A DNA stretch of 64,000 nucleotides, taken from positions 186,001 through 250,000 of the forward strand of contig CM069142.1 of assembly GCA_035221665.1 (NCBI GenBank), written 5' to 3'. This document shows, piece after piece, positions 26,122 to 32,100 of this stretch. Made by a program: the position numbers. How positions within the stretch are numbered: the first letter of the stretch is position 1; each line of letters starts with the position of its first letter. This DNA comes from Okamejei kenojei (Eukaryota).

Positions 26122-29100
26122 GGCATCGAATATCGGGTAGAATTTTCCGTATATGCAGCATCAAAGTAGCGGGACACCAAAATAGACACTTACTGAAGAA
26201 TCACCCAATTGTTTTATCTGAAAATTCTGAGTTATGGAGGCTATTAAATAAGTGCAATCCAGAAAATAGTCATCAATCATTCCACACTGCTAACAATTTC
26301 AAAGTTTCTCATGACCAACAATCAGAAACAAAGTGCCAAACTTAGTTAATCCATCCGTACAGTATATGTTTTACTTTACCATACTAGAGACACTGTGCTG
26401 AAACAGGTCCTTCGGCCCATCGGGACCACGCCGACCAGCGATCACCCCATACGCTAGGACTATCCTACACACTGCACATGGCGGAGTATTCGGCTAGCCA
26501 CGCGGTGGGAGGATCCCGGCAAGCCTCGGCAAAGCCCACCAGCAGGCCCAGCTGACTTGCCGTGGACTGAGCACCTGCTCCCCAGACTGGAACCCACCTG
26601 TAAGGCCCGGCTCACCCGCCCAGAGTGGAGTGAGTTGGACAGAGTGCCAGTAAGCAGACCGGCTGCAGGAGGCAGTGCACTGCACTGCCTTGACGGGGGA
26701 GTGGGCCGCTGGAGGCCCTGCAACAGCCTGGGCCTCGGCTGGACTGGGCACCGCTCCAAGAGGCCGAGCACATGGACCGGGCGCCGTTTAGAGTGGTGGA
26801 GGACATCATGGTCGCACATGGCCCGGCCGACCCTCCAATGCACCTGGACAACAGGCCTCATGGTCAATAAAGACCCTGCATTTACAATTGTCACTCGAAA
26901 ATGGCACCAAATATGGTGACTGTACACTGACTTGGTGTGCTACTGCAAGACACTTGTATCTGCGATGCTCTGCTAACATGTATCTAAGTGTTTCTGTATA
27001 GTGACATTAATATACAGAAATGAATTTCACTGTACCTCAGTACATGAGAGAAATAAAGTGCCATTGAATCACTGAACACTAGGAATAATTTACAATTTCT
27101 GGAAGCCAATTAACCTACAAACGCCGTCTTTGGAGAATGGGAGGAAACCGGAGCACCCGGAGAAATCCTACGAGGTCAGAGGAGAATGTACAAACTCCAT
27201 TACAGACACCCCCCCAGTCAGGATGGAAACCCGGGTCTCTGGCGCTGTGAGGCAGCAGCTCTACCACTGCGCCCACTGTGTCAGACACTACACGTGACAA
27301 TATTAAACCTAACTCTAAATCTTGTGGTCGGTGAGACTAAATCCTGGAATAGTTCACCAACAAACTTGTCAATGACTGATGGATTGACAAAAATGTCTGC
27401 CTACCTTTGTCTACCTTCGATTTTTCCAGCATCTGCAGTTCTTACTCTTAAAACAATGACTGATGATCTCACATTATGAATGAAAAATATCTCTAATAAG
27501 CTTATTTAAATTAACTTTTACTTGATTAATAATCTCAGAGATAAAACTTACCCGAGAAGCCCCACACTCGAGTCTGTTTTTTTCATCCACTTATGCCACA
27601 TTGAGCAGATGTACTGATTCTGTTCCCTCATATGCGTTCAGATTGTGGGTCACGTTGAAATAGCCATTGCTTTCTCCCATGATTATTTCACTGTACTTGT
27701 TTAAATCGTTCCCCGATTTGTCCTTCCACTCCACCGTTGGGACAGGATACCACCCTGACGACTGGCAAGACAGCGTGCCCTTTCCGGAATTCCAGAATAC
27801 TTTGATAAGATCAGGAGCAGCTGCCAAGAAAAGAAACATAAATAGCAACCATTAATGGTGACATGATGGTGCAGCGGTCGAGTTGCTGCCTCACAGCGCC
27901 ACAGACCTGGCTTCCATCCTGACTATGGGTGCTGTCTGTACGGAGTTTGTCCGTTTTACCCGTGACCGCGTGGGTTTTCTCCAGGTTGCTCCATTGTCCT
28001 CCCACACTCCAAAGACGTGCAGGACAATTAAGATTTTTTACCGATGCCAATTAAAACCTACCGACCTAGGATAGACATAAAATGCTGGAGTAACACAGGC
28101 AGCATCTCTGTAGAAGGAATGGGTGACGTTTCGGGGGGTCAAGACCTTCTTCAGGCCTGTATGCCTTGTGTGGGAGGAAGCTGGTGTCCCCGGAGAATAC
28201 CCACGTGGTCACGGGGAGAATGTACATACTCCATACAGACTGTACCCATAGTAAGGATCGAACTCTGGTCTCTGGTGCAGCAAGACAGCAACTCTACCAC
28301 TGTGCTGCATTAAAAGCTGTATAATTAGACACCCCAACTACACCCCTGTTCTTTGTTACTTTGATGCCATGGACATTCTCAGCTACATTCCTCCTGGCAG
28401 AGGCATGAAAGTTTATTTTGAACTGGTGGAACTTCACAAGAGAATTTTGATGAAGGGAGATGACACAAGAATTTTCGGCATCTGGCTTCCTGTAAAAAAA
28501 GCTGTGTTAAGAATTAAAAAGAATCCCTAATACTGAACAATTAAATAAATAAACCCAGGTACATTTGACCCTCACTGTAAACAGAACAAGAGAGAAGACA
28601 AGGAGGTTTCCAGTAGTGCGTGAGTCTAGGACCCGAGGGCACAGCATCAGAATAAAACAATGTTCCTTTAGAAAGGAGAAGAGGAGGAATTTCTACAGCC
28701 CGAGGGTGGTGAATCTGTGGAATTCATTGCCACAGACAGCTGTGGAGTCCAAGTCATTGGGTATTTTTAAAATGGAGATTGATAGGTTCTTGATTAGTAC
28801 GGGAGTCAGGGGGTATGGGGAGAAGGCAGGAGATGGACCCGATGGCCGAATGGCTGCTCCTATCAAGTATGAAGACATACCCCAAACAGATAGCTGGACA
28901 AATCCAGCTCCATATCCATTGTCAGTGCTAATACTGACAATGTACTTTCCCTCATCCCAGATGTCGACATTCTTCAATGTAAGGAATGCTTTTCCTTCTT
29001 TAAATGAGAATGTGTCGACTTCAATTCTTCCCGAGTAGTTGGCATGTTGTTTGCTGACATCGCTTTTATCTTCCTTGTACTCGTACAAGATTCCGGCATC

Positions 29101-32100
29101 TTGATCCTTCTCCCACCTCACCCTCGGTGCACATGGATCGTCGCACTCAAACGTACACTTGAAGGTGACATCCTTGCCGATCTCTACATCTGTGGCTGGT
29201 TCACAAGTGATGAATGCATCTGAACAAAAGACAGAAACGGGTTATTATTGTCACCTTCACTTGAGTTGAGTTTAGTTTATTGTCACGTGTACCGAGGTAC
29301 AGTGAAAAGCTTTTTGTTGGGTGCTAACCAGTCAGCAGAAAGACAATACATGATTACAATCGAGCCGCCCAAAGTGGACAGATACACGATAAAGGCAACA
29401 ATGTGCACAATGTTTAGCGCAAGATAAAGTCCAATCAAAGATAATCTGGTGGTCTCGAATGAGGTAGATAGTAGTTCAGGAATTCTCTCTAGTTATTGGT
29501 GGGATGGGTCAATTGTCTAATAACAGCTGGGAAAAAACTGTCCCTGAATCTGGTGGTGTGTGTTTTCATACTTCTGTACCTCTTGCCTGATGGGAGAGGG
29601 GAGAGGGAAGAAGAGGCAGTGGCCAGGGTGCAACTTGTCCTTAATTACGCTGCTGGTCTTGCCGAAGCGAGTCAAAGGAATGGAGGTCCCGACCCGAAAC
29701 GTCCCCCGTTCCATCTCTCCAGAGATGCTGCCAGTTCCGCTGCGTTACTCCAGCATTTTGTTGTCTATCAAAAAGAATGGAGGTTGGTTTGTGTGATGGT
29801 CTGGGCTTTCTTGTCTGTGTTCACAACTCCCTGCATTTATTGCGGTCTTGAGCTGATCCCAAACCAGGCTGTGATGCATCCTGATAAAATGCTTTCTGTG
29901 GTGCATATGTAGAAGTTGCTGAGAGTTGTTGGGGATATGCACAGAGATACAGCAAAAAGCTTTGTTTAGCATGCAGTCCAATCATATCTGATACTATACA
30001 TAAATACAATCATGCCAAACTCCAACAAAGAGAGTGCAGAATATAGTTCTCAGCATTGTAGCGCAATAGTTCCATAGACAAAGGAGTTGGAGTCTGAGGG
30101 TGGTGAATCTGTGGAATTTATTACCACAGACAGCAGTGGATACTGTCTTTTTTTAAATCAGAGATTGCTAGATTCTTGACTAGTAAGCGTGTCAGATATG
30201 CCATTTCTTGCGGCCTTGGTAGGTAATTATATGTTATTGTCGTTGGTTTACTATTGTCACCTGTACTGAGATAATGTAAAAATATATCATTATGTGCTAT
30301 CCAAACAGATCATATCATACACAAATACAACAGGTTGTGCTAAAGACAAATGAAATGAAAATTACAGTGTAGGAAGGAACTGCAGAGGCTGGTTTACACC
30401 GAAGGTCGACACAAAATGCCGGAGTAACTCAGTGGGACAGGCAGCATCTCTGGAGAGAAGGAATGGGTGAAGTTTCAGGTCGGGACCTTTCTTCAGACTG
30501 AGTGTCAGGAGAGAGGGAAACAGAGATGTGGAAGGGTAAGGTGTGGAAACAAGAAATCAAAAGGGGAGTTGTCAAGGAAAATATAGAATGAATCATTGTT
30601 AGCAGCGGGGCCGTGACAACAATGCATCCAACCAGTAAAATTTAATCAGGAGGAAATTAATTGAACTAGCATGAGGGAGAAATGGAGAAAGGACAAAAGC
30701 AAGGATTGCTTGAAGTTACAGAAGTCAATATAAATACATATAACCATATAACAATTACAGCACGGAAACAGGCCCTCTCGGCCCTTCCAGTCCGTGCCGA
30801 CCATTTGTTTTCCCCTAGTCCCATCAACCTGCACTCAGACCATACCCCTCCATTCCCTTCACGTCCATATACCTATCCACTTTACTCTTAAATGTTAAAA
30901 TCGATCCTGCCTCCACCACTTCTGCTGGAAGCTCATTCCACACAGCCACCACCCTCTGAGTAAAGAAGTTCCCCCACACTTTACCCCCGAAACCTCTGTC
31001 CCTTTAATTCTCATGTCATGCCCTCTTGTTTGAATCTTCCCTACCCTCAATGGGAAAAACGTATCCACGTCAACTCTGTCTATCCCTTTCATCATTTTAA
31101 AGGACCTCAATCGAGTCCCCCCTTAACCTTCTGCGCTCCAAAGAATAAAGACCTAACTTGTTCAACCTTTCTCTGTAACATAGTTGCTGGAACCCTGCAA
31201 CATTCTAGTAAATCTCCTCTGTACTCTCTCTATTTTGTTGACATCCTTCTTATAACTAGGCGACCAAAAATTGTACACCATACTCCAGAATTGGTCTTAC
31301 CAATGCCTTGTACAATTTTAACATTACTTCCCTACTCCTATACTCAATGCTCTGATTTATAAAGGCCAGCACACCAAAGGCTTTCTTTACCACCCTATCT
31401 ACATGCGTTTCCACCTTCAGGGAACTATGCACAGTTATTCCTAGATCCCTCTGTTCCACAGCATTCTCAATTCCCTACCATTTACCATGTACGTCCTATT
31501 TTGATTTGTCCTGCCAAGATGTAGCACTTCACACTTAACAGCATTAAACTCCATCTGCCATCTTTCAGCCCACTTTTCCAAATGGCCCAAATCTCTCTGT
31601 AGACTTTGAAAATCTACTTCATTATCCACTACACCACCGATCTTAAGTATCATCTGCATACTTACTTATGCAATTTTTCCACCCCATCATCCAGATCATT
31701 GGACCCAACACAGATCCCTGAGGCACCCCACTGGTCACCGGCTTCCAACCTGACAAACAGCCATCCACCATTACTCTCTGACATCTCCCATTCAGCCACT
31801 GTTGAATCCATCTTGCTACTCCGCCATTAACACCAAAAGATTGAACCTTCTTAACCAACCTTCCATGGGGAACCTTGTCAAAGGCCTTACTGAAATCCAT
31901 ATAGACAACATCCACTGCTTTACCCTCATCAATTTCCCTAGTTACCGCTTCAAAAAATTCAAGAAGGTTTGTCAAACATGACCTTCCAGGCACAAATCCA
32001 TGTTGACTGTTCCTGATCAGACCCTGTTTATCCAGATGCTTATATATATTATCTCTAAGTATCCTTTTCATTAATTTGCCCACCACTGACGTCAAACTAA

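What the first reader, a model, noticed from the sequence alone, without database searches (positions are those of the whole stretch)
28881..29219. B7-H4-like IgV domain lacking the canonical F-strand cysteine but with three extra N-terminal cysteines
Seen: DEGKYIV in place of DxGxYxC (GTC at 28936-28938), with Cys at domain positions 6, 22, 26 and 30 (ITC..KCTFECDDPC) in an otherwise open exon with good splice sites. Established: V-set domains normally have a B-F disulfide; CTFE and G.L.EYKE.K.D.S.Q...Y.GR resemble VTCN1. Inference: rewired disulfides (for example A-B strand plus a CxxxC in the CDR1-equivalent loop) or a dimerising or metal-binding loop, which could define an undescribed chondrichthyan B7 subfamily.
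Basis: partly seen in the sequence, partly recalled or inferred. Interest (0 to 1): 0.7.

Follow-up and report, generated by a model that had tools for sequence, protein, structure and literature searches.

The report
Cysteine-less B7-H4-like exon, probable pseudogene
The exon really encodes a B7-H4-like immunoglobulin V domain that lacks the usual second cysteine, but the next exon of the same gene has a broken reading frame, so this is more likely a dead gene copy than a new kind of immune receptor.

Summary
Minus-strand exon 29219..28881 is open for 339 nt with phase 1 at both ends. It encodes a V-set domain with Cys at residues 5, 21, 25 and 29, and Val (GTC, 28938-28936) where the F-strand Cys belongs. 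Its best solved relative is human VTCN1/B7-H4 IgV (E 1.1e-11).

The context weakens the functional reading. The partner IgC exon lies 1060 nt downstream (27820..27552, Pfam C2-set_3, 5.2e-13). It is 269 nt long, which is not a multiple of three. The frame entering it stops before the donor, and only model positions 13-64 of 87 match. The expected Y-x-C F-strand motif sits in a second frame, and the phase-1 donor fits the third. I found no leader, transmembrane or B30.2 exon.

The locus lies in a tandem duplication that carries LINE and LTR-element insertions.

Most likely this is a pseudogenised copy of a B7-H4/butyrophilin-like gene. Assembly indels, or a live subfamily with rewired disulfides, are not excluded.

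The parts
28881..29219 (-). IgV exon (the finding). It is 339 nt with phase 1 at both ends and gives an open 112-codon read. It is a V-set domain with Cys 5/21/25/29, Trp 35, one N-x-S/T site (residue 60), and D-E-G-K-Y-I-V in place of D-x-G-x-Y-x-C.
28936..28938 (-). GTC (Val) codon at the position of the canonical F-strand cysteine.
   Evidence: It aligns to Cys of VTCN1, PD-L1, BTNL8 and MOG in 5 of 5 printed alignments.
27821..28880 (-). Intron of 1060 nt between the IgV and IgC exons. Much of it is copies of interspersed repeats that occur at many other places in the window.
   Evidence: The blastn found matches of 28602-28836 to at least 8 other window sites.
27552..27820 (-). IgC exon (C2-set_3, the butyrophilin/B7 type), with a broken reading frame. 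It is 269 nt long (mod 3 = 2). The frame entering from the IgV exon carries the B to E strands and then meets a stop before the donor. The Y-I-C-S-M F-strand motif lies in a second frame, and the phase-1 donor CGG|GTAAGT fits the third frame. This implies at least two frame-changing events.
29564..44001 (.). The 5' flank of the gene. It is copy B of a tandem segmental duplication. Blocks 29564-30742, 32198-33159 and 41008-44001 are 92-97% identical to window 1-2449 and 3774-6849. Copy B is interrupted by a LINE piece (30737-32201) and an LTR element (33449-40466).

Best explanation
The exon is the IgV exon of one copy of a B7-H4 (VTCN1)/butyrophilin-like IgV-IgC gene. The gene sits in a tandemly duplicated region rich in retroelements. 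This copy is most likely a pseudogene.

The partner IgC exon has lost its reading frame. A transcript spliced V to C would therefore end inside the IgC domain, without its F and G strands and without a membrane anchor. Such a product would be expected to misfold or be degraded.

On this reading the Val at the F-strand position is a real substitution. It arose either after constraint was lost, or earlier in the gene family. It has no demonstrated structural 'rewiring' role in this copy. The three extra cysteines are probably inherited from the ancestor of this copy rather than gained during decay.

Shown: the domain identities, the Val codon, the frame break, the duplication and the insertions.
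Inferred: loss of function, and the timing of the Cys-to-Val change.
For: 1. The IgV exon is V-set, and VTCN1 is its best solved relative.
2. An IgC exon follows 1060 nt downstream on the same strand, with a phase-1 acceptor. It matches C2-set_3 at 5.2e-13, but only over model positions 13-64 of 87. Its best solved relatives are the IgC domains of BTNL8, BTN1A1, BTN3A and BTN2A1.
3. That exon is 269 nt long, and the entering frame ends in a stop before the donor.
4. A Y-x-C-x-M motif lies in another frame within about 2 residues of where the BTNL8 alignment places the F-strand Cys. The chance of such a motif falling in a slot of 10 codons by 2 frames is 0.7%, estimated from its frequency in all six frames of the window.
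5. The only strong donor is phase 1 in the third frame.
6. No other Ig, SPRY or other host-gene domain was found. I scanned 145 minus-strand stop-free segments of at least 68 aa and 140 plus-strand segments of at least 66 aa.
7. There is no convincing TM segment downstream and no convincing leader upstream.
8. The gene lies in a tandem duplication and its 5' flank has taken LINE and LTR insertions. Inference: this is the setting of birth-and-death gene families.
Against: - The IgV exon itself is perfectly open, with good splice sites, and keeps every other V-set hallmark: the B-strand Cys, the C-strand Trp, the G-R and D-x-G-x-Y motifs, and a G-x-G in the G strand.
- The two frame changes are clustered in the last ~70 nt of the IgC exon, and that stretch holds a 7-base homopolymer. 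Local assembly error could therefore mimic them.
- The second-frame piece alone (29 aa) matched no Pfam family at E<=10 and no Ig chain in the PDB at E<=10. Its reading as the F strand rests on motif and position only.
- Three extra Cys in 30 residues are unlikely to be products of decay (inference). This hints at a family-specific feature.
- Missing leader and TM exons are weak evidence. Such exons are short, and four N runs (10461-10960, 16380-16868, 23712-24027, 24032-24398) could hide them.
Confidence: 0.52

Rival explanations
1. The gene is live and the domain works. The IgC frame changes are assembly indels. The gene encodes a B7-H4-like surface protein whose V domain lacks the B-F disulfide. 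The fold is held together instead by other pairings of its four cysteines (A strand, B strand, and two in the B-C loop), or needs no disulfide at all.
For: - The IgV exon is open and canonical apart from the Val.
- The number of Cys is even, at four.
- The frame changes are clustered, and the stretch holds an A7 run.
- V-set domains with non-canonical bridges exist. In 2B4/CD244, Cys2-Cys99 tethers strands A and G (PMC12506779, passage seen). CD33 has a single intradomain Cys41-Cys101 bond (PMC13220637, passage seen). That the Siglec bond runs B to E within one sheet is recalled.
Against: - At least two independent frame changes are needed, and the first does not lie in a long homopolymer.
- No downstream or upstream exons were found.
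- The single-sequence model is poor (pLDDT 55). Its fold search gives only generic Ig hits with TM about 0.5, so no Cys pairing could be assessed.
Confidence: 0.17
2. This is a dead member of a live subfamily. The copy is a pseudogene, but the Val and the three extra Cys are traits of a functional, lineage-specific B7-H4-like subfamily with intact members elsewhere. One candidate is the tandem copy whose V exon should lie about 345 nt beyond the left edge of the window.
For: - The tandem duplication has homology running up to window base 1.
- The V exon carries few signs of decay, yet has three extra Cys. Inference: they predate inactivation.
Against: No paralogue was seen. Nothing shows when the Val arose.
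Confidence: 0.2
3. The Val codon is a base-call or assembly error, and the true codon encodes Cys.
For: The nearby IgC exon may carry assembly indels, so local sequence quality is open to doubt.
Against: GTC differs from either Cys codon at two bases. The codon is not in a homopolymer, and the exon frame is undisturbed around it.
Confidence: 0.04
4. A truncated product is made on purpose. The in-frame stop in the IgC exon would yield a secreted protein made of the IgV domain plus a partial IgC domain.
For: The frame is open from the IgV exon through 75 codons of the IgC exon.
Against: The product would end after the E strand of an Ig domain and could not fold (established knowledge of the Ig fold). 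No leader exon was found. The F-strand motif in another frame points to a recent break, not a designed end.
Confidence: 0.04

Closest known systems
VTCN1 / B7-H4 (B7x) IgV domain, PDB 4gos
   Same: It is the best solved relative (48.2 bits, E 1.1e-11). By my count, 35 of 98 aligned residues are identical. It shares C-T-F-E after the B-strand Cys and the E/K-rich C'-C'' stretch, G-R, L-K-N-V and D-x-G-x-Y.
   Different: VTCN1 has Cys where this exon has Val. It has Pro and Leu where this exon has Cys 25 and Cys 29, and the alignment does not reach Cys 5. Orthology is untested: no synteny, no tree. The partner IgC exon is broken here.
Butyrophilin / butyrophilin-like proteins (BTNL8, BTN1A1, BTN2A1, BTN3A1-3)
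   Same: The IgC exon matches Pfam C2-set_3 ('Butyrophilin subfamily 3 member A2-like Ig-C', 5.2e-13). Its best Ig-C matches in the PDB are BTNL8 (E 3.5e-06) and BTN1A1, BTN3A and BTN2A1. The IgV exon also hits BTNL8 and BTN3A. The nearest Atlas clusters are BTN-named. Butyrophilins are reported in cartilaginous fishes (PMC12841164, passages seen).
   Different: No B30.2/PRY-SPRY domain was found in any of the 285 scanned segments of the window. The IgV domain is closer to VTCN1 than to any BTN.
V-set domains with non-canonical or absent disulfides (2B4/CD244 and other CD2/SLAM-family members; Siglecs such as CD33)
   Same: They show that a V-set fold can do without the B-F bridge, or can use another one. 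In 2B4, Cys2-Cys99 joins strands A and G (PMC12506779). In CD33 the bond is Cys41-Cys101 (PMC13220637). That domain 1 of CD2 and CD58 has no disulfide is recalled and was not checked.
   Different: They are unrelated subfamilies. None appeared among the 60 listed PDB hits. Their Cys positions differ from those here. Here no pairing is shown, and the gene looks broken.

Membership tests
Immunoglobulin V-set domain (Pfam PF07686) | Profile match above the curated cut-off | tested here: met
   37.5 bits against a cut-off of 26, E 3.1e-09, covering model positions 5-108 of 109.
Immunoglobulin V-set domain (Pfam PF07686) | B-strand Cys and C-strand Trp | tested here: met
   Cys 21 and Trp 35. They align to the Cys and Trp of VTCN1.
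Immunoglobulin V-set domain (Pfam PF07686) | F-strand Cys of D-x-G-x-Y-x-C, which forms the B-F disulfide | tested here: not met
   Val (GTC, 28938-28936). Cys is present in 5 of 5 aligned relatives. This feature is usual in the family but not obligatory.
VTCN1 / B7-H4 | IgV closest to VTCN1 among characterised proteins | tested here: met
   It ranks first of 103 PDB sequences at E<=1. This was tested against solved structures only.
VTCN1 / B7-H4 | IgV exon followed by an intact IgC exon, both phase 1 at each end | tested here: not met
   The IgC exon is present at 27820..27552, but it is 269 nt long, has a stop in the entering frame, and carries the F-strand motif in another frame.
VTCN1 / B7-H4 | Signal peptide, and a transmembrane segment with a very short tail | tested here: inconclusive
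   Heuristic scans found no convincing leader or TM segment. Short exons and four N runs limit the test.
VTCN1 / B7-H4 | Orthology by phylogeny and conserved neighbours | not testable with these tools
   No other host-gene domain is in the window.
Butyrophilin (BTN/BTNL) | IgC domain of the C2-set_3 type | tested here: met
   49.2 bits against a cut-off of 27, but covering only model positions 13-64 of 87.
Butyrophilin (BTN/BTNL) | Cytoplasmic B30.2 (PRY/SPRY) domain | tested here: not met
   0 of 285 stop-free segments (145 minus-strand, 140 plus-strand) hit a SPRY or PRY family at E<=0.01. The domain could lie outside the window or in an N run. Some BTNL proteins lack it (recalled).
V-set domains with rewired disulfides (Siglec-like, 2B4-like) | A demonstrated non-canonical Cys-Cys bond that replaces the B-F bond | not testable with these tools
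   The model has pLDDT 55 and no coordinates were returned. A protein-level disulfide map of a natural or recombinant product would be needed.

The most novel reading that the evidence does not exclude
The Val and the A-strand, B-strand and B-C-loop cysteines may be traits of a living, lineage-specific B7-H4-like subfamily. In that subfamily the inter-sheet B-F disulfide would have been given up for another arrangement of four cysteines. This copy would then be either intact (with the IgC breaks being assembly errors) or a recently dead member. A tandem paralogue would lie just outside the window.
Probability: 0.15. Interest if true: 0.45.

Novelty: new member of a known kind. Interest (0 to 1): 0.2.

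Why it matters
If the copy is a pseudogene, it is ordinary. Tandemly duplicated immune-receptor families shed dead copies all the time, and a lost cysteine in one of them says nothing about structure.

It would matter modestly if intact paralogues share the Val and the extra cysteines. B7-H4 is a checkpoint ligand whose receptor is still unidentified (recalled, not checked here). A natural B7-H4-like V domain that folds without the B-F disulfide would be a useful comparative case for Ig-fold stability and for the evolution of the B7/butyrophilin family. Even then there are precedents for cysteine-less or rewired V-set domains in the CD2/SLAM family and the Siglecs.

Tried and rejected
- **Paralogues in the window.** tblastn of the IgV peptide (best other hit E 0.16) and of the IgC peptide (best other hit E 1.6), plus blastn of both exons with flanks. 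None were found; only flanking interspersed repeats recur.
- **Regex scan for C...W...Y/F-x-C** in six frames, and for two-Cys segments. Both missed the IgC exon because its second Cys is out of frame. It was found only by the Pfam scan of all stop-free segments followed by reading the translations.
- **TM scan** (Kyte-Doolittle, 19-21 aa). The hits were poly-T translations, LINE-internal pieces or AT-rich stretches. None were accepted.
- **Leader scan** (ATG, hydrophobic core, phase-1 donor). The best-looking candidate (34564-34444) lies inside the LTR element and resembles another repeat copy at about 51.7 kb, so I rejected it.
- **Structure.** The single-sequence AlphaFold2 model has pLDDT 55. 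Foldseek against the PDB gave generic Ig folds with TM about 0.4-0.56 and only 1 hit at E<=0.001. This was not usable for Cys pairing. No alignment could be built, so I did not spend the second model job.
- **Second-frame IgC piece alone.** No Pfam family and no Ig hit in the PDB.
- **Rfam at gathering thresholds.** 0 matches in the window.
- **Literature**. I found nothing on B7-H4-like genes of cartilaginous fishes that lack the F-strand Cys. These searches cover open-access text only, and supplements were closed.
- Exons and frame pieces were searched one by one.
- **Collections not used.** Genome contigs (bacteria and archaea) and the phage, plasmid and E. coli collections cannot hold this locus.
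Full report
**1. The observation**

The feature lies on the minus strand. The exon runs from 29219 to 28881. It is preceded by a pyrimidine-rich tract and CAG, and followed by GTATGT. It is 339 nt long with phase 1 at both ends.

Read from 29217 it gives 112 codons without a stop. Cys falls at residues 5, 21, 25 and 29, and Trp at 35. The F-strand motif reads D-E-G-K-Y-I-V, with GTC at 28938-28936.

**2. What the exon is**

- Pfam calls it V-set: 37.5 bits against a cut-off of 26.
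- Among solved structures, the best of 103 sequences at E<=1 is human VTCN1/B7-H4 IgV (4gos_A, E 1.1e-11). Next come PD-L1 (3e-07), BTNL8 (2.9e-06), MOG and BTN3A.
- By my count from the printed alignment, 35 of 98 aligned residues are identical to VTCN1, including C-T-F-E after the B-strand Cys.
- In all 5 printed alignments the relative has Cys opposite the Val. VTCN1 has Pro and Leu opposite Cys 25 and Cys 29.
- The ESM Atlas look-alikes are V-set clusters named butyrophilin, BTNL2 and HHLA2, from Chordata.

So 'B7-H4-like' is fair as a likeness. Orthology was not testable. Nothing suggests a human contig, since the best human relative is only about 36% identical.

**3. The rest of the gene**

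I scanned every stop-free segment by reference against Pfam: 145 minus-strand segments of at least 68 aa, and 140 plus-strand segments of at least 66 aa (and 29/30).

- On the minus strand there was one V-set hit (the finding), one C2-set_3 hit, three RVT_1 and one endonuclease.
- On the plus strand there were only two endonuclease hits, plus weak hits of the number expected by chance.

The C2-set_3 hit is an IgC exon at 27820..27552, 1060 nt downstream of the IgV exon. It has a good acceptor (…TTCTTGGCAG|) in phase 1 and a strong donor CGG|GTAAGT. Its entry frame encodes the usual B-strand and C-strand signature of B7/butyrophilin IgC domains. It matches C2-set_3 at 5.2e-13 and the IgC domains of BTNL8, BTN1A1, BTN3A and BTN2A1 in the PDB. 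The nearest named Atlas cluster is 'butyrophilin subfamily 2 member A1-like' (0.90).

**4. The IgC exon is broken**

- The exon is 269 nt long, which is 2 mod 3.
- The entry frame meets a stop codon before the donor.
- The Pfam match covers model positions 13-64 of 87 only. It ends where the F strand should begin.
- The expected F-strand motif, Y-I-C-S-M, is present but in a second reading frame. It sits within about two residues of where the BTNL8 alignment predicts the second Cys.
- From the frequency of Y-x-C-x-[VILMA] in all six frames of the window, the chance of one falling in such a slot is about 0.7%.
- The donor is phase 1, as Ig exons of this family are (established knowledge), only in the third frame.

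Entry in frame 1, the F strand in frame 2 and exit in frame 3 together imply at least two frame-changing events in the last ~70 nt. That stretch contains a 7-base homopolymer.

Against this reading, the 29-aa second-frame piece on its own matched no Pfam family and no Ig chain. That step was left out, and each exon and frame piece was searched on its own.

**5. Other exons**

A hydropathy scan found no credible TM segment downstream. A scan for ATG, a hydrophobic core and a phase-1 donor found no credible leader upstream. No SPRY domain is in the window.

These negatives are weak. The exons in question are short, and four N runs were left as they are.

**6. Setting**

Self-comparison shows that window 1-2449 and 3774-6849 are a 92-97% copy of 29564-33159 and 41008-44001. 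This is a tandem duplication with a period of about 29.5 kb.

The homology starts at window base 1, which corresponds to 29564, about 345 nt upstream of the IgV exon. A paralogous IgV exon is therefore expected just outside the left edge of the window and was out of reach.

Copy B alone carries a LINE piece (30737-32201, RVT_1 5.5e-25) and an LTR element (33449-40466). No paralogue of either exon lies inside the window.

**7. Interpretation**

The most economical reading is a pseudogenised copy of a B7-H4/butyrophilin-like IgV-IgC gene in a birth-and-death array. The lost Cys is then a substitution without a demonstrated role (confidence about 0.5).

Two caveats keep the bolder readings alive:
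- The frame changes are clustered and could be local assembly errors.
- Three extra cysteines in 30 residues of an otherwise well-kept exon are unlikely to be decay products (inference). They are probably a trait of this gene lineage.

With the Val there are four cysteines, an even number. Non-canonical bridges in V-set domains are known:
- In 2B4, Cys2-Cys99 joins strands A and G (PMC12506779, passage seen).
- CD33 has Cys41-Cys101 (PMC13220637, passage seen).
- That CD2 and CD58 lack the disulfide is recalled.

So a rewired domain is possible, but it would not be without precedent. The single-sequence model (pLDDT 55; generic Ig hits only) cannot speak to Cys pairing. A base-call error at the Val codon is unlikely, because two bases would have to differ and there is no homopolymer.

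**8. Literature**

Butyrophilins are reported in all jawed vertebrates sampled, including four cartilaginous fishes (PMC12841164, passages seen). A survey of the IgSF groups VTCN1 with HHLA2, and merges that pair with PD-L1, PD-L2, CD276 and ICOS-L at a relaxed cut-off (PMC13262535, passages seen).

Searches turned up nothing on B7-H4-like genes of cartilaginous fishes that lack the F-strand Cys. Supplements were closed and might hold gene lists.

**9. Unchecked**

Paralogues, orthologues, taxonomic origin, reads and expression all stay unchecked.

**10. Verdict**

The B7-H4 likeness is supported. The functional inference is not supported, because the gene copy looks broken. It is a new member of a known kind, of low interest unless intact paralogues share the Val.

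Noticed in passing
window 33449-40466: A retrovirus-like LTR element, described only. Two direct repeats (33449-34086 and 39831-40466) are about 637 bp long and 97.7% identical. They have TG...CA ends with short inverted termini and a 4-bp flanking duplication. A primer-binding-site-like stretch follows the first repeat, and a purine-rich stretch precedes the second. The inner part is 5744 bp, and its longest stop-free stretch is 195 aa. None of the 26 stop-free segments of at least 66 aa that lie wholly inside gave a retroviral Pfam family, so its genes are unrecognisable or absent at this sensitivity and breaks could not be counted. It is present in duplication copy B only.
   Followed up: partly
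window 62947-63596: A third copy of the same ~640-bp repeat, on the opposite strand and about 85% identical. No partner was seen in the window, so it may be a solo LTR.
   Followed up: no
window 1-6849 versus 29564-44001: A tandem segmental duplication, 92-97% identical, with a period of about 29.5 kb. It runs up to window base 1, so a paralogous gene copy probably starts just left of the window.
   Followed up: partly
window 11759-14833, 17977-20820, 30737-32201, 46984-49842: Several copies of one LINE family, 78-93% alike. Reverse-transcriptase pieces are at 31646-32179(-), 18909-19259(-) and 47948-48385(-). Endonuclease pieces are at 20242-20820(-) and 49243-49842(+). All are fragments.
   Followed up: partly
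window 23540-23600 (minus strand): Next to the N run there is a long pyrimidine tract and an AG, followed by a short open stretch that ends in a stop. It could be a small terminal exon of the Ig gene or nothing at all. The TM-like score here came from translated poly-T.
   Followed up: no
window 10461-10960, 16380-16868, 23712-24027, 24032-24398: Four N runs of 500, 489, 316 and 367 bases. All lie in the stretch where the 3' exons of the Ig gene would be expected. They were left unfilled.
   Followed up: no
window 28602-28836 and about 8 other sites: An interspersed repeat fills much of the IgV-IgC intron and comes within about 45 nt of the IgV donor site. Copies lie at 536-635, 30096-30195, 35036-35160, 42248-42342 and elsewhere.
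   Followed up: no
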